IMG/VR virus record: IMGVR_UViG_3300032287_001974
Location: 1 to 64,000 of that record
Direction: 5' to 3' (one strand)
From: a virus
Length of the DNA: 64,000 nt
The first letter of the stretch is position 1. The number at the start of each line of letters is the position of its first letter. The position numbers and the translations under genes were made by a program. The notes below the pieces were generated by a model. The model searched no databases. It saw only the letters and a program-made list of their open reading frames with translations, and was not told the origin of the DNA. Below are positions 6,310 to 24,981 of the stretch, one piece after another.

Positions 6310-7059
6310 ATGGCAGAAAACATCGAGCGCGCAGCGCAGAATCAAATATCTAATGCCGCTGGCTCAAGTCGCGGACAAAACGGCGTAATTGCCGGAATTC
6401 TTACGGGTAACTATCTCAGGGAGAGACGCGACCGCAACCGTGCTGGTCGACCAGGTGCAAACGGTGAACCTAGCCAGGCTCACTGGGAGAACATGGATGC
6501 TTACGCTAACCGTGAGCACCAGCGCCGTCTAGACTTCCTACAAAAAGCCCAATATGGCGACGGGGATGGTACTCCTGGCCCTGATGGTGCCCCTGCTCGT
6601 AGAAGTGGATCCCCAGAGGGAACGTTTGCTCACAACATTGAGTATGGCGACCGTGGTATCAAAGTAGGTTACACTCAGCGCAGAGCAGAAGCCGCAGCAG
6701 CTGCCGATAAGCCAGCTGCAAAGGGTCGCACTCGCCAGACCGCAGGAACCCCGCCTAAAGCCTCTACAGGCTCTAAGACTCGTGGTGCTCAGGCAGGTGC
6801 TGCAATTGGTGGCGCTATCGGAACTGCTCTAGGAGCCGCAGCTGTTAAGAACCCTGCAGGTGCCGCAGTGGGTGGCGAAATTGGCGCTAAGGCTGGAGAA
6901 GCTATTGGTAGCGCCGTGTCAAACACTATTGCTAAGTCTAAGGAAAAGAAGGCTGCTGCATCTTCGGGCAGTGCTGCTGGCTCTAGTTCTTCGCCAAAGC
7001 CTACTCAGCCGGCTGGCTCTAGCTACACCACTGACATTAAGTTCGGTACTACTAAGTAA
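6310..7059 (+). CDS. Gly/Ala-rich protein with glycine zipper (possible ejected/internal protein)
   Basis: GAQAGAAIGGAIGTALGAA...GAAVGGEIGAKAGEAIG; leaderless start 6 nt after TACAAT. Confidence 0.65.
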   Translation: MAENIERAAQNQISNAAGSSRGQNGVIAGILTGNYLRERRDRNRAGRPGANGEPSQAHWENMDAYANREHQRRLDFLQKAQYGDGDGTPGPDGAPARRSGSPEGTFAHNIEYGDRGIKVGYTQRRAEAAAAADKPAAKGRTRQTAGTPPKASTGSKTRGAQAGAAIGGAIGTALGAAAVKNPAGAAVGGEIGAKAGEAIGSAVSNTIAKSKEKKAAASSGSAAGSSSSPKPTQPAGSSYTTDIKFGTTK

Positions 7060-7173
7060 ATGAAGCCTTCAGGTAGAACGCGTGAGTTCCGCGACGCACT
7101 TATGCGTGTCGGAGATTATGCTATTGCCGGTCAGCGAACTAACCTAATCCAATGGGGAAGGTGGACACCGTGA
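7060..7173 (+). CDS. 37 aa hypothetical protein (not in track)
   Basis: MKPSGRTREFRDAL...WTP, adjacent to the upstream stop. Confidence 0.5.
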   Translation: MKPSGRTREFRDALMRVGDYAIAGQRTNLIQWGRWTP

Positions 7174-7319
7174 AAAAAGAATTTAAGACGGCCGTTTTTA
7201 AGCCAGTTCAAATAAATGACTCACGCTTCGGTATCCGAAAGATTTACCTGAACACTCTAGAAAAACCAAGTATCCTTACATACAATAACCCCGGCAGACA
7301 CTGGTGGGGAACTAAATAG
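7170..7319 (+). CDS. 49 aa hypothetical protein (not in track)
   Basis: GTG start overlaps the upstream TGA; KKEFKTAVFKP resembles 3639..3821. Confidence 0.5.
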   Translation: MKKEFKTAVFKPVQINDSRFGIRKIYLNTLEKPSILTYNNPGRHWWGTK

Positions 7320-7376
7320 CCTGTTTTATTTGGTTTAATAGTTTATCCTTGACCTGAAGCATTTGAAAGGACCGTA

Positions 7377-7706
7377 ATGGCCACCTATACCCCTAAGAGA
7401 CTCGCTGGACCAGCGCAGCTGACCACCTCTGCTGTTGCTGTTTACACCGCACCTAGCACAGCAGTTATTAAGCAGATTATCATCAATAACACTTCGGCCT
7501 CTGCCGTTGCAGTTACTGCGCACATTCTTCCAGTAAGCGCTTCCGCGAGCGCGGCTAACGCAATTATCAGCTCTCTTACAGTTGCACCTTACTCGCAGCT
7601 TATCTGGGCAGCGGATATCCCAATCACCACAGGTGAAAAGCTATCCATGCTTGCTGCTACCGGGTCAGTGATTACTTATCTAGTAAGCGGAATCGAGATC
7701 GTCTAA
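7377..7706 (+). CDS. Virion fibre-associated beta-sandwich protein
   Basis: YTAPSTAVIKQIIINN...GIEIV pattern common in phage minor structural proteins. Confidence 0.6.
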   Translation: MATYTPKRLAGPAQLTTSAVAVYTAPSTAVIKQIIINNTSASAVAVTAHILPVSASASAANAIISSLTVAPYSQLIWAADIPITTGEKLSMLAATGSVITYLVSGIEIV

Positions 7707-7849
7707 TGGCGCGCCCGGGCGATGTGACCTCTTACGGCACTACAATCCTTACCAGCAATGACGACGGTCAGCGCAACATCTATGTTTCTACCGCCGCACC
7801 TATATCTTCGGACGGTCAAAATGGAGATGTCTGGATCGTCTACGCTTAA
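7706..7849 (+). CDS. 47 aa fibre adaptor peptide (not in track)
   Basis: RNIYVSTAAPISSDGQNGDVWIVY, a P...G..GD.W fibre motif; TAATG coupling. Confidence 0.65.
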   Translation: MARPGDVTSYGTTILTSNDDGQRNIYVSTAAPISSDGQNGDVWIVYA

Positions 7850-7858
7850 GGAGACCCT

Positions 7859-8608
7859 GTGCCTGACGTTTATAGAAGCAAGGTTAAGGTAGGCGGTGTT
7901 TGGTATACCGTTTCCGCTACTTATGTAAAAGTAGCCGGTACTTGGAGAACAGCCACAGGTGTCTACTCTAAAGTAAATGGGGCCTGGGTAACTGCTTACC
8001 CCTATCCTCTTTCTGCCGATACTTCTTTAACTAACCTTAGAGTTAATGGTGTACTGGTCGGTAATGGCGGCACATTTAACGCGGCCACGGGCACAACTTC
8101 AGTATCCATCTCTGCTACCATCGCAGCCGGAGCTACTGCTACTGGCTTAGGTACTGTGTCAGTTGCCTACGCAAACAACCCAAATACCAAGAGCATTGTA
8201 GTAACCGCTGAAAACGGGTCTACCACCGCTACTTATACGGTTAACATCGCAGTAGGAGCTCCTCCGACAGTCACTGTGTACTACAAGTACTGTACTAGCT
8301 CGTCCTCTACGGCGATCACTTCAGGTAGCTACACAGACACTACAACCACAAGTGCAAGCACGGCTTGCGCTAATCGCTACGCACAACTGGGCTATCCATA
8401 CACTTGGCAATGTGGCGCTACCGTCCCCGCTGATCCCGACTGTCTAGCCACTTGTACTTCATGCTGTCAAGATACCGGAACGTTCACCTGTGCCCCCTAC
8501 GGCGTTGGAAGAGTTAGGTACATTTTCCCTCAGTACGACCCCTGCTGCGGCAGAACCTGTCCCGACCGAGTTTACTACGTAGACAACGCGCCTTGCATAG
8601 GCGAGTAG
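7859..8608 (+). CDS. Fibre/spike protein: KVxGxW repeats, cadherin-like beta-sandwich, 12-Cys C-terminal domain
   Basis: KVGGVW/KVAGTW/KVNGAW; SADTSLTNL...IVVTAENGSTTATYTVNI; AAGGAG RBS with GTG start. Confidence 0.7.
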   Translation: MPDVYRSKVKVGGVWYTVSATYVKVAGTWRTATGVYSKVNGAWVTAYPYPLSADTSLTNLRVNGVLVGNGGTFNAATGTTSVSISATIAAGATATGLGTVSVAYANNPNTKSIVVTAENGSTTATYTVNIAVGAPPTVTVYYKYCTSSSSTAITSGSYTDTTTTSASTACANRYAQLGYPYTWQCGATVPADPDCLATCTSCCQDTGTFTCAPYGVGRVRYIFPQYDPCCGRTCPDRVYYVDNAPCIGE

Positions 8609-8629
8609 TTAAAGCTGTATACTTTTACT

Positions 8630-8992
8630 ATGTTTGAAAAAGTAAAGGCAATAGTAGAAATAAAGGTTGGCGATGACCTTGTACAGGCCATTTATATAAC
8701 TGACCTTGACAAAGCCCGCCACTGGCTAATTATTGCCGAGAACCCTGTGCTTATAGTTGAGGTCACAGGTATGGCCTGGGAACCTGCACGCGGCGCTCGC
8801 TGGACCGGCACAGAATTTGAATCGGTGACGCACCACCTACTTCTCCCAGATATGCTGTATTTTGCTTTTGTGGTGGACGGTGTATGTGTGTATGTTGAGT
8901 TGCTAGACCCCTCTTTCACAGAAAAAGCGGCCGTTGCTGCGGCTTATAGAACCGGACCGAGTTTTGAGGTGCACTATGGTCGACCTGAGTGA
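8630..8992 (+). CDS. Putative fibre chaperone, copy 1
   Basis: GARWTGTEF motif; leaderless start 6 nt after TATACT; modules shared with 22350..22739. Confidence 0.55.
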   Translation: MFEKVKAIVEIKVGDDLVQAIYITDLDKARHWLIIAENPVLIVEVTGMAWEPARGARWTGTEFESVTHHLLLPDMLYFAFVVDGVCVYVELLDPSFTEKAAVAAAYRTGPSFEVHYGRPE

Positions 8993-9260
8993 GTGGGAAA
9001 AGTACAAGGCTAACCCCGAAGAGTATTCTAAATCGCTTGTGGAGTCTAGAGCGGGCGAAGTAAGCAAAGAATCTAGGCCCTGGGACTTCCTTAATCCCCA
9101 CACTGAATACGTCTCTAAAGAAGAGGCGGCTATCCGCTTAGACATCTGTAAGTCATGCCCCGAACTTATACAGAGTTTATTGCAGTGTAAAAAGTGCGGC
9201 TGCTTTATGAAAGCCAAAACTATGATTAAGCATTCTGAGTGTCCGCTGCATAAATGGTAA
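8976..9260 (+). CDS. Small Cys-rich (DUF6171-like) protein, copy 1
   Basis: RLDICKSCPEL...QCKKCGCFMKAKT...CPLHKW; ATG at 8976 has a GAGGT RBS. Confidence 0.75.
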   Translation: MVDLSEWEKYKANPEEYSKSLVESRAGEVSKESRPWDFLNPHTEYVSKEEAAIRLDICKSCPELIQSLLQCKKCGCFMKAKTMIKHSECPLHKW

Positions 9261-9346
9261 TTTAGATGTAGGTTCAGGCCACTTGTAAAGTCAAAAAGTG
9301 CGACACTTTTACTAATGCTTTTTGGCCGAACTTAATAGGATTTATA

Positions 9347-9616
9347 ATGACCGTTGCAGAGCTAGCTACCACGCTCGCCGCTTTTGCTACGGTGCTAGCT
9401 TTTGTAGGTACCCTAATTGCGCGAATTATGCGCAACCACACTAATAAGGTCGTCGGCGACTTAATTAAAGAATATCTGTCTGAACTTAAGCCAAACTCCG
9501 GGTCATCCCTTAGAGACGAAGTTAAGTGTATTAGAGATGACATGGTAGACCTTAAAGTCGATATCGCATCCCTTGAAGGCAAGTTCGACCAACACATTAA
9601 AGAAACAAACCGCTAA
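9347..9616 (+). CDS. Single-TM coiled-coil membrane protein (holin/spanin-like)
   Basis: N-terminal TM followed by PNSGSSLRD and a coiled coil, typical of actinophage lysis-associated proteins. Confidence 0.55.
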   Translation: MTVAELATTLAAFATVLAFVGTLIARIMRNHTNKVVGDLIKEYLSELKPNSGSSLRDEVKCIRDDMVDLKVDIASLEGKFDQHIKETNR

Positions 9617-9663
9617 ATCTGGTAGACTAGGTCTACTAATTCATTTAACTACTAAGGAATCCT

Positions 9664-9903
9664 ATGAACTGCGCTAATTGCCCAGAACCAGCTTTATACA
9701 AAATTGATCCTGTAGTAGCAAACGTTCGCTACTACTGTGAGAAGCACCTTCCACTTACCTACCAGGCACAGGCACACCTGGGGCTGTTTCCGCTAGATGA
9801 GCCGGCAGTCACCTCTTCTAAGAAGAAGTCGACTCCTGCAGTCGAAGAGGATCCAGTGGAAGAGCCTGTTGCAGAAGAAGCTTCTTCAGACGAAACCGAA
9901 TAA
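9664..9903 (+). CDS. Small zinc-finger protein with acidic tail
   Basis: CANC...YCEKH. Confidence 0.65.
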   Translation: MNCANCPEPALYKIDPVVANVRYYCEKHLPLTYQAQAHLGLFPLDEPAVTSSKKKSTPAVEEDPVEEPVAEEASSDETE

Positions 9904-10166
9904 TGAAAATTATTCGGGTACAGGCTGTGCAAGCCCACCCAGTGCCCAAAAGGGTACACGAGCCTTACGGCCCATTTCCGGTAGAGTTATTTGATGAGCC
10001 GGAAATTGTTTACGATTACGCTAGCGAAGATGACGACGGCTCGTCTAGTCTAGAACCTGGCGCAACCGCCCAAAATAATTACAGACCTGCTCGTTATTTT
10101 AGATGCCGACACTGCGACCTTCGCGTAACGGAAGAAGAAATAGAAGCCCACATCTGCGGAGAATAA
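9903..10166 (+). CDS. Hypothetical protein with C-terminal zinc finger
   Basis: CRHC...HIC. Confidence 0.65.
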   Translation: MKIIRVQAVQAHPVPKRVHEPYGPFPVELFDEPEIVYDYASEDDDGSSSLEPGATAQNNYRPARYFRCRHCDLRVTEEEIEAHICGE

Positions 10167-21259: not shown

Positions 21260-21796
21260 ATGGCAAGGACTATATATACGGACCTTACGGCCACTGGTCG
21301 TACATTTACCGCCGCTACCTTCTCAGGTAACCTTTCTGGAACCATAAACAGCATTACTATCTCCGGCACATCTAGCACAACCATGACGCTGCCTTCTACT
21401 ACGGCAACTATTGCTAGAACTGACGCGGCTCAGACCTTTACAGGAGTGCAGACGTTTAATGGAAACGTCATTTACCACATTGCTACAAACGCCCAAACCG
21501 CGTCCTACACCCTTGTTTTAGCGGATGATGGAAAAATAGTTGAAGTCAGCAACGCATCTGCTAACACCGTGACTATTCCATTGAACTCCGCGGTTGCTTT
21601 TCCTGTAGGAACTCAAATTACCGTTATTCAAACAGGCGCTGGACAGACAAGCTTTGCAGTTACTGCTGGTGTGACTCTTAACGCTACCCCACAAGCAACC
21701 GCAAACACCGCAAAGCTTCGTGCCCAATGGTCCTCAGTAACCCTACTCAAGCGTGACACAAATATTTGGGTTGCCATGGGCGATTTGACGTTCTAA
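21260..21796 (+). CDS. Fibre-associated protein
   Basis: SYTLVLADDGK...FPVGTQITVIQ...LRAQWSSVTLLK...W...GDL domain. Confidence 0.7.
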   Translation: MARTIYTDLTATGRTFTAATFSGNLSGTINSITISGTSSTTMTLPSTTATIARTDAAQTFTGVQTFNGNVIYHIATNAQTASYTLVLADDGKIVEVSNASANTVTIPLNSAVAFPVGTQITVIQTGAGQTSFAVTAGVTLNATPQATANTAKLRAQWSSVTLLKRDTNIWVAMGDLTF

Positions 21797-22332
21797 TGGC
21801 TATAAGTGGCGGTATTGCCGCGGGAGCAGGGAAAGAGCCTGACAGGCCTACGTCTGTGTCAGCCACGGCCGGTAATGCCTCAGCAACCGTCTCCTTTACA
21901 GCTTCCACCCATAAGGGCAAAGGAAACTCAATTGCTACGTATGTAGCTACCTCTTCCCCTACAGGAATAACTGGCACTAGCTCAACTTCACCAGTTACTG
22001 TTAACGCTCTGTCTAACGGTACTGCCTATACTTTTACTGTTGTAGCCAATGCAACCTACGGGGCTTCAACTATAACTAGTGCGGCATCAGTTGCAAGCAA
22101 CTCTGTTACCCCAGTAGCCCCAACTACCACTACTACCACTACTACCACGACAACTACAACCACCACAACCACCACAACCACTGCGGGAACTACCGCAGCC
22201 CCTAACTACAAACGTTGTACTTCTGCCCAAGTTTCTGTGGGTTGTTGTACGAGCACAAGCTGCTGTGTCGTAGGTGGTGGCGGTGTTTCTTGTGCTACCC
22301 CATCTTGTGGTGGTACGCTAACTTGTTTCTAA
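21796..22332 (+). CDS. Fibre-tip protein: FN3 domain, poly-Thr linker, 8-Cys C-terminal knot
   Basis: PDRPTSVSATAGNASATVSF...LSNGTAYTFTVVA FN3; 20 Thr codons; TAATG overlap places the start at 21796. Confidence 0.8.
   Translation: MAISGGIAAGAGKEPDRPTSVSATAGNASATVSFTASTHKGKGNSIATYVATSSPTGITGTSSTSPVTVNALSNGTAYTFTVVANATYGASTITSAASVASNSVTPVAPTTTTTTTTTTTTTTTTTTTTAGTTAAPNYKRCTSAQVSVGCCTSTSCCVVGGGGVSCATPSCGGTLTCF
22123..22182 (+). repeat. ACN x20 poly-threonine tract
   Basis: 20 consecutive Thr codons with mixed third positions. Confidence 0.9.
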
Positions 22333-22349
22333 GATGTTAGGATTTATAT

Positions 22350-22739
22350 ATGCTTACTGATGCTGATCTAGAGTTTGTGCACCAAGGCACTAATGGGGTT
22401 GCACTAGTTTGGGTTATTGACGAACAGTGCCTCTATGATTTGCCGCTATCTGTAGAGCACGCGTTTATCTTTCAAGAAGCGGACGAGGTGCTGGACGTAT
22501 CGGAAGACTACTCAGACCACGACGGCATTACAGTGGAGTTCCGTAAAAATGGCGTGACCCTAGAAACCCTGCAGACAGGTGAGTACTTCGGCAGTATTTT
22601 GCTAAGTAACCCTTTGGTATTAGACCTGCATCAGTACCCTTACGGACTGTACGTAAGCTCCCCAGACGCACTATTCCAAAACGGTGAGTTTGTTATACTT
22701 GACCACGACGTAACAGGAGAGGACCCTTTCTATGAGTAA
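22350..22739 (+). CDS. Putative fibre chaperone, copy 2
   Basis: Modules shared with 8630..8992; leaderless start 6 nt after TGTTAGGAT. Confidence 0.55.
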   Translation: MLTDADLEFVHQGTNGVALVWVIDEQCLYDLPLSVEHAFIFQEADEVLDVSEDYSDHDGITVEFRKNGVTLETLQTGEYFGSILLSNPLVLDLHQYPYGLYVSSPDALFQNGEFVILDHDVTGEDPFYE

Positions 22740-22962
22740 GAGTCGCTGGGAGCAGTACAAAGAAAAAAATGGCGTTACTCCTCTAGATTTGTTAAACCCT
22801 AAAACCATAAAAATTGATCTCACTGCCGCAACCGCGCGAATGGATATCTGTAAAAGTTGTCCAGAACTTATAGGTCTTACCCACCAGTGCAAAAAGTGTG
22901 GGTGCTTCATGGACGTTAAAACTAAGCTAGAGGCGGCTAAATGCCCTCTCGGCAAGTGGTAG
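22732..22962 (+). CDS. Small Cys-rich (DUF6171-like) protein, copy 2
   Basis: RMDICKSCPEL...QCKKCGCFMDVKT...CPLGKW. Confidence 0.8.
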   Translation: MSKSRWEQYKEKNGVTPLDLLNPKTIKIDLTAATARMDICKSCPELIGLTHQCKKCGCFMDVKTKLEAAKCPLGKW

Positions 22963-24008
22963 CGACTACTCGCTGGGACGAGTATAAAAAGAAGCACGGC
23001 GTTACGTCGCCTCTTAAGTACCCAATTGCAATGGCGCAGATTGACCCTAATGGGCTCTGCAACGTTGGCTGTTGGTTTTGCCCTGTAGGCTACGCGCCTA
23101 ACCCCGAAGTAGGCAAAAAGAACATGCCCATAGAGGTTCTTGACAGCATCCTTAAGCAGCTACACGAGGGCAAAGGTAGTTTTGTTTCTCGCGGCTTTGA
23201 TTTTATATACACCGCTCATTACAACGAGGTCCTGCTGTACAGGCACTTTGAAGAGATGTTGGCCCTCTTTCGAAAGTACGGGTTTAAAACAATGATCCTT
23301 ACTAATGGGACCCCCCTTACCCCGGCTAAGACAGACATCATAAAACAGTACCCTGATGTCGTATATGGTATTTGCTTTAATACTCCCTCAGCAAACCAAG
23401 AACGCTGGTCCAAGGCTGTAGGAATGAACGAAAAGATATTTGCCAAGCTTCTTTCTAATATTAGCTACGCTATCGAACAACTCCCTGAGATGTTTGAGAC
23501 CAAGCGCCTATCGATCCAAGTAAACGGCCTCAATAAAATGTCGTTGTTTGAGTATGGTGGTTGGATAGATAAACTACAGAACGCTCCAGAAATAGACCTA
23601 GACCCAGAAACGGGCTCCCTTGCTACAGAGGTTGCTGAATTTGAATCCCTATTCCCAGGCATGCAGGTGTACGGTATGCCAAGCCTTATTGATCGAGCAG
23701 GGCACCTAGACAAACATGGGGTTATAACTAACGCTCGTGCTATTGAGTCCTACAGCAAGGGCGACAAGACTCGTGTAGTGGGCTGTGGCAACGGCAAGGA
23801 GGTCGGCGGTAGACCTAATGGGTGGCTGCACGTAAACGCTAATGGTGACGTATTTATCTGCTGTAACGATTATGACTTTGAAAGTACATTTGCTAACGTT
23901 GCAGATAAGCCTTTAAAGGATATCTGGCACGGCTCAGAGCACACCACTATGATACAGCAAGCCTACGACACTATATGTAGGACCTGCTCAGCTGCAATTT
24001 GGGAGTAA
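22956..24008 (+). CDS. Radical SAM protein with SPASM/Twitch domain
   Basis: CNVGCWFC (CxxxCxxC); YNEVLL; LTNGT; C...WLHVNANGDVFICCND...KDIW...CRTC; start is GTG 22956 or ATG 22941. Confidence 0.9.
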   Translation: MVATTRWDEYKKKHGVTSPLKYPIAMAQIDPNGLCNVGCWFCPVGYAPNPEVGKKNMPIEVLDSILKQLHEGKGSFVSRGFDFIYTAHYNEVLLYRHFEEMLALFRKYGFKTMILTNGTPLTPAKTDIIKQYPDVVYGICFNTPSANQERWSKAVGMNEKIFAKLLSNISYAIEQLPEMFETKRLSIQVNGLNKMSLFEYGGWIDKLQNAPEIDLDPETGSLATEVAEFESLFPGMQVYGMPSLIDRAGHLDKHGVITNARAIESYSKGDKTRVVGCGNGKEVGGRPNGWLHVNANGDVFICCNDYDFESTFANVADKPLKDIWHGSEHTTMIQQAYDTICRTCSAAIWE

Positions 24009-24009
24009 C

Positions 24010-24981
24010 GTGGCAAGCATATTTATTCAACTAGCTTCATACCACGACTATGAGCTCCCCGGCACTATCTTAAACGCGCTAGAGATGTCATCGGGTAATC
24101 ACCAGATTAACTTTGGGGTTCACCACAACTACTACGAAGTAGACGATATCTTGATTCCAAATATCTCTAACGTAAAGGCCACTATAAGCAAGGCCCCCCA
24201 CAATCTAGGTATGGGCATTAGCAGAGAGATAGCGCATAACTTCTACTGCGGTGAAGACTACTATATGCAAGTAGATGCTCACACTAGGTTCAGAGAGAAC
24301 TGGGACAATAACTACATAGTCGAGATTGATTACTACAGGTCATTAGGGTTTGAGAAGCCGCTGCTGACAACCTATCCCAGAAACTACTGGTACACAGACG
24401 GCAAGATGGAGCACGATGAGGGCTGGGCAATCAGCTGCATTAGCTTTGAGGAAGATAAAGAACGGTTTGCAACCTTAAGGGTTCCTTCTCAAATGGCCTG
24501 GAGCAACCCCAAGGGAAACGTATTTAGTCGGTCCGTGTCGGGCGGCTCCATATTTACTGTAGGGCCCTTCTTTGTCCCCAACAGGCGCACACACTCAGTT
24601 GGTGAAGAGATTTTAATAGCTGCAAGGGCTTATACCCACGGGTATGACTTGCTCGTACCGAGACAGAACCAGTTGTCTCACCTTTATTACGACCACACTA
24701 AGGCGGGCGTAAACGGGCGACGTTTGGTTTGGCAAGACTTTCCTGAGAAGTCAAGTGACTTTGAAAAAATAGGGCTTGAGGAGGTTCAGTCCATATTTAA
24801 AAACAATGTCATAGGCGACCAAGGGTTTGGTACTGAACGAACTCTAGAAGAGTTTGAGGTGTTTGCTGGGTTGGATTTTGCCTCGGGAGCAGTAATTGCT
24901 AGGGAGGACGCCGGGGTTGAGACCAGACTCGCTGAGCTTTCTTGCCCAGTAGGGTTTTGGAACCCACTCTTGCGTCAATAG
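24010..24981 (+). CDS. GT60-like polypeptide N-acetylglucosaminyltransferase
   Basis: SIFIQLASYHD, SR...Y.GEDYYMQVDAHTRF..NWD (DxH), GEEI...ARAYTHGYDL, HLYY and G..RTL.EF..F.G.DF motifs of the Gnt1/GlcNAc family. Confidence 0.8.
   Translation: MASIFIQLASYHDYELPGTILNALEMSSGNHQINFGVHHNYYEVDDILIPNISNVKATISKAPHNLGMGISREIAHNFYCGEDYYMQVDAHTRFRENWDNNYIVEIDYYRSLGFEKPLLTTYPRNYWYTDGKMEHDEGWAISCISFEEDKERFATLRVPSQMAWSNPKGNVFSRSVSGGSIFTVGPFFVPNRRTHSVGEEILIAARAYTHGYDLLVPRQNQLSHLYYDHTKAGVNGRRLVWQDFPEKSSDFEKIGLEEVQSIFKNNVIGDQGFGTERTLEEFEVFAGLDFASGAVIAREDAGVETRLAELSCPVGFWNPLLRQ

What the first reader, a model, noticed from the sequence alone, without database searches (positions are those of the whole stretch)
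7859..9260. Second copy of the Cys-tipped fibre / chaperone / Cys-protein triad
Seen: the same three-gene order occurs 14 kb away with a different scaffold (cadherin-like rather than FN3) and a 12-Cys tip. Both tips start with Y-K-x-C-T-S (YKYCTS, YKRCTS) and have even Cys counts with CC doublets. The two small Cys proteins share a near-identical core (DICKSCPELI...QCKKCGCFM..KT....CPL.KW). Inference: each Cys-rich tip travels with its own folding pair, perhaps a cytoplasmic disulfide-forming or metal-loading module analogous in purpose to the poxvirus thiol-oxidation pathway. That would give a function to a DUF6171-like family.
Basis: partly seen in the sequence, partly recalled or inferred. 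Interest (0 to 1): 0.8.

Follow-up and report, generated by a model that had tools for sequence, protein, structure and literature searches.

The report
Cysteine-knot fibre tip helper cassette
This lake phage carries two copies of a three-gene set, widespread in uncultured phages: a surface protein ending in a small disulfide-type cysteine knot, followed by two small helper proteins of unknown fold. The helpers most likely mature that knot, but their chemistry has not been tested.

Summary
Window 7859-9260 encodes a 249-aa protein with a 12-Cys C-terminal domain, a 120-aa protein, and a DUF6171 protein (true start 8976). The same gene order recurs at 21796-22962. These are the only two Cys-dense tails and the only two DUF6171 genes in the 85.6-kb phage genome.

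In 179 distinct IMG/VR DUF6171 loci, a Cys-dense tail sits exactly two genes upstream in 44%, against 1-3% at most other positions. All 54 distinct knots have an even Cys count (4-12), which argues for disulfides. The two middle proteins are linked only through a shared ~60-aa unit (hhalign 72-83%). They diverge with the knot, while DUF6171 stays about 62% identical.

Neither helper matches a solved fold. In cyanophage P-SS2 the DUF6171 protein was not detected in virions although its neighbours were. In several lineages a thioredoxin sits in the middle-gene position.

Bacilli carry it beside arabinofuranosidase genes, and it occurs fused to glycosyltransferases and a 2OG oxygenase.

Best reading: dedicated non-virion maturation factors for the knot. 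An oxidase mechanism is unproven. This scan has already noted the cassette on other DNA (115 notes, one followed up).

The parts
7859..8608 (+). tip1: 249-aa surface or fibre-like protein. N-terminal KVxGxW repeats, a weak cadherin-like beta-sandwich, a Ser/Thr-rich stretch, and a C-terminal 12-Cys domain.
   Evidence: ORF and translation. GTG start with AAGGAG. Pfam cadherin-like E 0.002, below cut-off. 9 Cys in the last 60 aa. All 12 Cys conserved in the L089 orthologue.
8630..8992 (+). mid1: 120-aa helper, probably two copies of a ~60-aa unit (FAFVVDG...NP..V.V...W.G.EF).
   Evidence: No Pfam, NCBIfam or PHROG family. 80% identical orthologues in L089 and L090. hhalign to the short-middle family gives probability 72%, E 3.5e-5, with a second alternative alignment.
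8976..9260 (+). duf1: 94-aa DUF6171 protein with six invariant Cys (CxxC-x9-CxxCGC-x12-CP...W at the C-terminus).
   Evidence: PF19668 at 32.5 bits, above 27. phrog_13558. ATG with GAGG upstream. Invariant residues.
21796..22332 (+). tip2: the first triad's client. fn3-like domain, poly-Thr linker, 8-Cys knot of 42 aa.
   Evidence: The start at ATG 21796 is inferred from its overlap with the stop of the upstream ORF.
22350..22739 (+). mid2: 129-aa helper, two beta-beta-alpha-beta repeats plus a hairpin.
   Evidence: AF2 pLDDT 93. Family found in 63 of 80 related loci. No solved fold above Z 5.
22732..22962 (+). duf2: 76-aa DUF6171 paralogue.
   Evidence: PF19668 at 31.1 bits. 57% identical to duf1. 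AF2 pLDDT 94, no solved fold.
22941..24981 (+). Neighbours of triad 2 only, not part of the core cassette: a radical SAM/SPASM enzyme and a GT60-like (PF11397) glycosyltransferase.
   Evidence: Pfam. The radical SAM gene is present in only 9 of 80 related loci and the glycosyltransferase in 26 of 80. These enzymes follow the linker type, not the knot.

Best explanation
Window 7859-9260 is a second, independently diverged copy of a phage cassette that makes and matures a small disulfide-bonded cysteine knot at the end of a virion surface or fibre protein.

Proposed roles:
- The knot protein (tip1) is the client.
- The middle protein is a client-specific helper that changes together with the knot.
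- DUF6171 is the constant component: a tiny protein built around six invariant cysteines, probably a metal-thiolate centre. It is proposed to handle the client's cysteines by holding, pairing or shuffling them, and not to become part of the virion.

Shown: the gene linkage, the even Cys counts, the contrast in conservation, and non-detection in one virion proteome.

Inferred: that the helpers act on the knot, that DUF6171 binds metal, and that thiol-disulfide chemistry is involved.
For: Linkage
- Two of two Cys-dense tails and two of two DUF6171 genes in this genome are paired.
- A Cys-dense tail sits at position -2 in 44% of 179 unique loci, against 1-3% at most other positions, and in 54 of 60 window-like phages.
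- 52 of 54 linker-plus-knot proteins have DUF6171 within two genes, against 2 of 11 linker-only proteins.

Disulfide-type client
- 54 of 54 distinct knots have 4, 6, 8, 10 or 12 Cys and none has an odd count.
- All 12 Cys of tip1 are conserved in a 67%-identical orthologue.

Division of labour
- The DUF6171 core has median 62% identity across 67 triads, against 27% for the middle proteins and 30% for the knots.
- Middle-protein and knot divergence correlate (Spearman 0.43, partial 0.41). For DUF6171 and knot the values are 0.19 and 0.10.

Independence from tailoring enzymes
- A 100%-complete 135-kb relative and a 90%-complete one have the triad but no PF11397, PF13640 or radical SAM gene.
- The tailoring enzymes follow the linker type.

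Thiol link
- Thioredoxins above the Pfam cut-off lie directly upstream of DUF6171 in L185, L186 and L178. Thioredoxin-like CxxC proteins do so in T4-like cyanophages.

Not a virion part
- P-SS2 ORF085, whose C-terminus is DUF6171, gave 0 peptides. All of ORF076-092 around it were detected, including the Cys-rich ORF084 (PMC2784084).

Other
- Invariant residues are R, six C, G, P and W.
- mid-DUF6171 fusion proteins exist (P0129-P0132).
Against: - No biochemical data exist for any member. No paper mentions DUF6171.
- DUF6171 shows no oxidase cofactor motif and no match to a solved fold.
- The family extends well beyond Cys knots. It follows arabinofuranosidase-like genes in 10% of sampled Bacilli. 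Many phage loci have no Cys-dense neighbour.
- DUF6171 is fused to GT60-like, GT-A-like and 2OG-oxygenase domains. That points to a docking role rather than a redox role.
- Small knots often fold unaided once exposed to air after lysis.
- The P-SS2 non-detection concerns one distant phage and a fairly small protein.
- The homology between mid1 and mid2 rests on moderate profile probabilities.
Confidence: 0.5

Rival explanations
1. DUF6171 is a recognition or docking module, working like a RiPP recognition element. It binds the knot-bearing protein and brings tailoring enzymes (glycosyltransferase, prolyl-hydroxylase-like oxygenase, radical SAM) to the adjacent tether. It has no thiol chemistry of its own.
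For: - Fusions to PF11397 occur in both orders (P0122 and P0128 as DUF-GT; P0124 as GT-DUF). There are also fusions to a GT-A-like domain (P0121, P0123) and to PF13640 (P0126).
- A glycosyltransferase follows DUF6171 in 26 of 80 loci and a radical SAM gene in 9 of 80.
- The DUF6171 N-terminal motif is copied onto the radical SAM enzyme in this window.
- In Bacilli the neighbour is also a carbohydrate-active enzyme.
Against: - Complete or near-complete relatives have the triad but none of these enzymes.
- Triad 1 has no enzyme gene beside it.
- The enzymes correlate with linker chemistry, whereas DUF6171 correlates with the knot.
- Adjacent overlapping genes fuse easily, so some fusions may be incidental.
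Confidence: 0.2
2. The two small proteins are structural tip subunits (an adhesin or a cap) that stay bound to the knot in the virion, as T4/S16 gp38 does on its fibre.
For: - The middle protein co-varies with the knot.
- The best, though weak, structural neighbours of mid2 are phage fibre or chaperone entries: 7ypx_a (Z 5.0, rmsd 3.1, 60 aligned) and 5yvq_B (Z 3.3).
- The genes sit inside structural modules.
Against: - P-SS2 ORF085 was not detected in virions.
- DUF6171 is far more conserved than the presumably receptor-facing knot.
- DUF6171 occurs in Bacilli and fused to enzymes.
- Z values of 5 or below are within background for this search.
Confidence: 0.1
3. DUF6171 is a small zinc-ribbon regulator of transcription or translation for neighbouring late genes. 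Its position next to Cys knots reflects operon layout, not action on the knot.
For: - One source labels some members 'predicted Zn-ribbon and HTH transcriptional regulator'.
- Neighbourhoods in distant phages are diverse, including sigma-like HTH proteins.
- In Bacilli it lies in the arabinose operon.
Against: - 76 aa leaves no room for an HTH, and none was found.
- There is one copy per knot, two per genome.
- The gene position is exact across very divergent clients.
- It is fused to enzymes.
Confidence: 0.07
4. The knot cysteines bind metal (Zn or Fe-S) in the virion rather than forming disulfides, and DUF6171 is the metal donor.
For: - DUF6171 has six invariant Cys in zinc-knuckle-like spacing.
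- The bacterial forms add an N-terminal CxxC, giving eight Cys, enough for two Cys4 sites.
Against: - Knot Cys counts of 6 and 10 do not fit Cys4 sites. The strict even rule across 4-12 Cys fits pairing better.
- The knots have no His or Asp pattern.
Confidence: 0.08

Closest known systems
Tail-fibre gene followed by its dedicated assembly chaperone (Mu S/Tfa, PDB 5yvq; lambda stf-tfa; T4 gp37 with gp38 and gp57A)
   Same: Helper genes lie directly downstream of the fibre gene and diverge with the fibre tip. The helper is not, or only transiently, in the virion.
   Different: - There are two helpers of unrelated, unnamed families.
- No Pfam or PHROG chaperone family matches.
- The structural match to Mu Tfa is only Z 3.3.
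- The client is a tiny Cys knot rather than a trimeric beta-helix tip.
Poxvirus cytoplasmic disulfide pathway (E10R Erv-type FAD oxidase, A2.5L, G4L thioredoxin-fold); from general knowledge
   Same: A virus that assembles in a reducing cytoplasm and encodes its own small Cys-motif proteins next to disulfide-bonded virion proteins.
   Different: - No Erv/ALR or thioredoxin signature in duf1, duf2, mid1 or mid2.
- No FAD site is evident.
- The folds are unmatched in the PDB.
- Only some other lineages carry a thioredoxin in the cassette.
Disulfide-linked tail fibres of freshwater cyanophage Pam3 (PMC9942802)
   Same: A lake phage whose tail structure depends on disulfides; DTT treatment detaches the fibres.
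   Different: In Pam3 the disulfides join fibre to baseplate through single Cys residues. No knot domain and no dedicated helper genes are described.
Zinc-centre chaperones with thiol activity (DnaJ Cys-rich domain, Hsp33, plant DnaJ-like zinc-finger proteins); from general knowledge
   Same: Small Cys-cluster modules that hold or reshuffle client cysteines.
   Different: The motif here is CxxC-x9-CxxCGC-x12-CP, not CxxCxGxG. There is no sequence or fold match. Metal binding is untested.
RiPP recognition elements (PqqD-like), stand-alone or fused to tailoring enzymes; from general knowledge
   Same: DUF6171 occurs both alone and fused to different tailoring enzymes acting on one client.
   Different: There is no winged-helix fold. 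The triad exists in phages without those enzymes.

Membership tests
DUF6171 (PF19668) | Score above the Pfam gathering cut-off (27 bits) | tested here: met
   duf1 scores 32.5 bits and duf2 31.1 bits. Whole-genome scan gives 33.2 and 29.7 bits.
DUF6171 (PF19668) | Conserved Cys pattern CxxC...CxxCGC...CP with a terminal W | tested here: met
   R36, C40, C43, C53, C56, G57, C58, C71, P72 and W76 are invariant across phage and Bacilli members.
Zinc ribbon or other metal-thiolate mini-domain | Two CxxC knuckles that bind a metal | not testable with these tools
   The knuckle spacing is present. No coordinates or metal data are available. Fold searches gave nothing.
Erv/ALR sulfhydryl oxidase (poxvirus E10R type) | Match to the Erv1/ALR family model (FAD-binding helical bundle with CxxC) | tested here: not met
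   A Pfam scan at E up to 1 lists only DUF6171 and a weak NRDD match for the small Cys proteins, and nothing for the middle proteins.
Thioredoxin fold (poxvirus G4L, DsbA type) | Thioredoxin-family profile match with a CxxC active site | tested here: not met
   No match for mid1, mid2, duf1 or duf2. mid2 has only partial thioredoxin alignments at probability about 0.1. Thioredoxins do occur in this position in other lineages.
Phage tail-fibre assembly chaperone families (Caudo_TAP, DUF4376 and the like) | Profile match or clear fold match to a known fibre chaperone | tested here: inconclusive
   No Pfam or PHROG chaperone match. Best fold neighbours are 7ypx_a at Z 5.0 and 5yvq_B at Z 3.3, which is within background.
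RiPP-type Cys cross-linking (radical SAM/SPASM maturase with a Cys-rich precursor) | The maturase gene travels with the Cys-rich substrate | tested here: not met
   The radical SAM gene is in 9 of 80 related loci and absent from complete relatives that have the triad. None lies next to triad 1. It reaches no NCBIfam equivalog cut-off.

The most novel reading that the evidence does not exclude
DUF6171, with a client-specific partner (the middle protein or a thioredoxin), is a previously unknown minimal, metal-centred system for forming or isomerising disulfides in the bacterial cytoplasm. Thousands of phages would use it to make disulfide-knotted receptor-binding tips before lysis. It would be a bacterial-virus counterpart of the poxvirus pathway, built on a new fold.
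Probability: 0.15. Interest if true: 0.85.

Novelty: new variant of a known kind. Interest (0 to 1): 0.6.

Why it matters
- Disulfide-rich mini-domains at phage fibre tips, and how they are made in a reducing cytoplasm, are essentially undescribed.
- The cassette gives a concrete, testable client for a very large orphan family, with more than 11,000 clusters at 50% identity.
- If the helpers really handle cysteines, they would be a compact tool for producing knotted peptides in bacteria, and a new entry in viral oxidative folding.
- If they are docking modules instead, they would explain how phages aim glycosylation and hydroxylation at their fibre tethers.

Tried and rejected
- **DNA search.** Search of 7000-10000 against deposited phage genomes found no match.
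- **Direct mid1-mid2 comparison.** BLAST E 0.48 and hhalign probability 9.7%. They are linked only through the short-middle family.
- **Fold searches.**
  - duf2 model: Foldseek found nothing at E 0.001 or better. VIA-wide best was Z 2.1.
  - mid2 model: Foldseek found nothing. VIA-wide best was Z 5.0, against a typical background of 7-8.
- **ESM Atlas.** No usable hit for duf2 or mid2.
- **Knot domains.** No match to Pfam or to PDB sequences.
- **Literature.** No paper mentions DUF6171.
- **Complex prediction, mid2 with duf2.** No verdict: score 0.31 against a mark of 0.32, controls 0.00-0.08. This is not used as evidence either way.
- **RiPP-style cross-linking of the knot by the neighbouring radical SAM enzyme.** Rejected. 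The enzyme is rare among relatives, is absent beside triad 1, and even Cys counts fit pairing.
- **A shared N-terminal tag on DUF6171 and the radical SAM enzyme as a general feature.** Rejected. Homologous radical SAM enzymes start at MKYQYKISMAQIDPNG without it.
- **Scan of bacterial genome contigs by DUF6171 pattern.** This returned mostly phage fragments binned into lake MAGs. The Bacilli members were found with the Pfam model instead.

Full report
**What is there**

The window is most of an 85.6-kb, 97%-complete uncultured virus record. It has terminase, portal and tail-fibre genes.

At 7859-9260 three co-directional genes are tightly packed.

- tip1 (7859-8608) starts at a GTG with AAGGAG upstream. 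It has N-terminal KVxGxW repeats and a weak cadherin-like match (E 0.002, below cut-off). All 12 of its Cys lie in the last ~105 aa.
- mid1 (8630-8992) has no family match.
- duf1 most likely starts at ATG 8976, which has GAGG upstream and agrees with the orthologue. It overlaps mid1 by 17 nt and passes the PF19668 cut-off (32.5 against 27 bits).

The same order recurs at 21796-22962: a weak fn3 match, a poly-Thr linker, an 8-Cys knot, then mid2 and duf2.

The window's ORFs contain 0.8% Cys overall. Only these two proteins have dense Cys tails, and the genome has exactly two DUF6171 genes. So the pairing is two of two in both directions.

duf1 and duf2 are 57% identical (E 1e-24). The tips share only YKxCTS.

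**Is the cassette real beyond this genome?**

Three seeds retrieved 235 IMG/VR loci, of which 179 are unique.

- A Cys-dense tail (at least 4 Cys in the last 50 aa) sits exactly two genes upstream of DUF6171 in 71 of 161 cases (44%). Most other positions show 1-3%, and +1 shows 5.6%.
- Among window-like phages the figure is 54 of 60.
- Of proteins with a low-complexity linker plus a knot, 52 of 54 have DUF6171 within two genes. The two exceptions have it three ORFs away. Only 2 of 11 linker-only proteins do.
- Knots without a repeat linker, tip1 among them, also carry the helpers. The link is therefore to the knot, not to the tether.

**Nature of the knot**

After the linker, 54 distinct knots have 4 (18), 6 (26), 8 (7), 10 (2) or 12 (1) Cys, and none has an odd number. 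tip1's 67%-identical orthologue keeps all 12 Cys while the Ser/Thr stretch between the first two changes.

Strict parity across many unrelated knot sequences argues that every Cys is paired, that is, disulfides. It argues against Cys4 metal sites and against one-sided cross-links. No known Cys-rich family matches the knots. Disulfides in the tails of lake phages have a published precedent in Pam3 (PMC9942802).

**The helpers**

The mid2 family is present in 63 of the 80 related loci. Its AF2 model is confident (pLDDT 93) and shows two beta-beta-alpha-beta repeats plus a hairpin.

In other lineages DUF6171 is preceded by 60-78-aa proteins with the pattern FAFVVDGEV...SSNP.VVEI...GW.WDG..F. Profile comparison links this short family to mid2 (probability 83%, E 9e-6) and to mid1 (72%, E 3.5e-5). 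Each match has a second alternative alignment, as expected for a duplicated unit. The two middle genes are therefore probably one superfamily, although they cannot be aligned directly.

Across phage and Bacilli members, DUF6171 keeps R36, C40, C43, C53, C56, G57, C58, C71, P72 and W76 invariant. It also folds confidently (pLDDT 94).

Neither helper has a convincing solved-structure neighbour. For duf2 Foldseek found nothing and the VIA-wide best was Z 2.1. For mid2 the best was Z 5.0 to the Pam3 fibre and Z 3.3 to the Mu fibre chaperone, which is within background.

Across 67 distinct triads the DUF6171 core stays at median 62% identity, while middle proteins and knots drop to 27-30%. Middle-protein divergence follows knot divergence (Spearman 0.43, partial 0.41) much more than DUF6171 does (0.19, partial 0.10). 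The pairs are not independent, so the size of the correlations matters here, not their p-values. This pattern fits a client-specific middle protein and a generic DUF6171.

**Clues to mechanism**

1. In cyanosiphovirus P-SS2 the 186-aa ORF085, whose C-terminus is DUF6171, gave 0 peptides in the virion proteome. Every neighbour from ORF076 to ORF092 was detected, including the Cys-rich 2613-aa ORF084 directly upstream (PMC2784084). This fits an assembly factor rather than a virion part.
2. Thioredoxins above the Pfam cut-off (43.5, 42.5 and 32.3 bits) lie immediately upstream of DUF6171 in L185, L186 and L178, and one or two genes further upstream in L151 and L190. T4-like cyanophages have a weak thioredoxin-like CPQC/CPTC protein between a Cys-rich fibre-like protein and DUF6171.
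3. Fusion proteins exist. DUF6171 is fused to PF11397 glycosyltransferases in both orders, to a GT-A-like domain, to a PF13640 oxygenase, and to a ~110-aa N-terminal extension of unassigned family. Tandem DUF6171 arrays also occur.
4. The tailoring enzymes track tether chemistry. Thr-rich linkers have a GT60-like gene nearby in 11 of 12 loci. Pro-rich linkers have 2OG oxygenases in 27 of 35 loci.
5. A 100%-complete 135-kb relative and a 90%-complete one carry the triad but no GT60-like, PF13640 or radical SAM gene. The PF11397 search does detect the known gene in this genome. The core job of the helpers therefore does not depend on those enzymes.

DUF6171 is a very large family: 11,729 clusters at 50% identity at E 0.001 or better.

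- In 30 of 301 sampled Bacilli genomes an eight-Cys form is present. In most of the 25 loci inspected it lies directly after a ~490-aa protein that I read as a GH51-type alpha-L-arabinofuranosidase (assignment from sequence motifs and my own knowledge, not a tool result). In some genomes genes that I read as araM, araL and an epimerase flank it.
- In more distant phage lineages, 23 of 54 and 32 of 47 loci have no Cys-dense neighbour. There DUF6171 follows Gly-rich fibres, oxygenases, sigma-like proteins and others.

The cassette therefore defines the role of one large phage branch, not of the whole family. No feature ties it to the poxvirus E10R/A2.5L/G4L proteins.

**Verdict**

The most likely explanation (about 0.5) is a dedicated, non-virion maturation pair for a disulfide knot. 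The middle protein would be the client-specific partner and DUF6171 the conserved cysteine- or metal-handling core.

A true oxidase or isomerase mechanism is possible (about 0.15) but unproven. A docking role for tailoring enzymes is the main rival (about 0.2).

This scan has already noted the same cassette on other DNA, so this copy adds a clean linker-free example rather than a first discovery. No publication was found on it.

Noticed in passing
window 22941-23033: The radical SAM ORF begins with about 30 extra residues (RWDEYKKKHGVTSPL) that mimic the DUF6171 N-terminus. Homologous enzymes in six other loci start at MKYQYKISMAQIDPNG without it. It looks like a copied or recombined 5' end.
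   Followed up: partly
IMG/VR loci L002-L280 (flanks of DUF6171): Tailoring enzymes follow tether chemistry. Thr-rich linkers have a GT60-like gene nearby in 11 of 12 loci, and Pro-rich linkers have 2OG-Fe(II) oxygenases in 27 of 35. Some relatives carry 7-12 oxygenase genes.
   Followed up: partly
L101-L125 (Bacilli genomes): An eight-Cys DUF6171 gene lies directly after an arabinofuranosidase-like gene in about 10% of sampled Bacilli. It often overlaps that gene's stop, inside arabinose-utilisation clusters. No explanation so far.
   Followed up: partly
P0121-P0133, P0199: DUF6171 occurs fused to GT60-like (both orders), GT-A-like and 2OG-oxygenase domains and to a ~110-aa N-terminal extension of unassigned family. 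It also occurs as tandem arrays of 3 to 6 copies in one protein.
   Followed up: partly
window 7377-7706 and tip1 N-terminus 7859-8000: A 109-aa protein (phrog_20100) precedes tip1. The same pair, a homologous small protein followed by a Cys-rich protein with KVxGxW repeats, recurs in L130. tip1 may therefore attach through a partner of its own.
   Followed up: no
window 9347-9616: A holin-like gene (phrog_15431, E 6e-5; N-terminal hydrophobic segment) directly follows triad 1. It lies far from the main tail module and just upstream of the terminase block.
   Followed up: no
L002, L004, L005, L009, L012: In several relatives the knot is encoded by a separate 65-75-aa ORF (MAGCVQGL...CTSAQV...) after the fibre-like gene. 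This could be a split gene, a frameshift or a stand-alone knot peptide.
   Followed up: no
window 9664-9903: Another small Cys protein (MNCANCPEP...YYCEKH) with an acidic tail lies two genes after duf1. It is conserved in L089 and has no family match.
   Followed up: no
L190 690-1163 and L151: A 157-aa protein with a CGTCTKCCEGW motif (8 Cys) sits between a thioredoxin and DUF6171. This may be a third type of Cys-handling partner.
   Followed up: no
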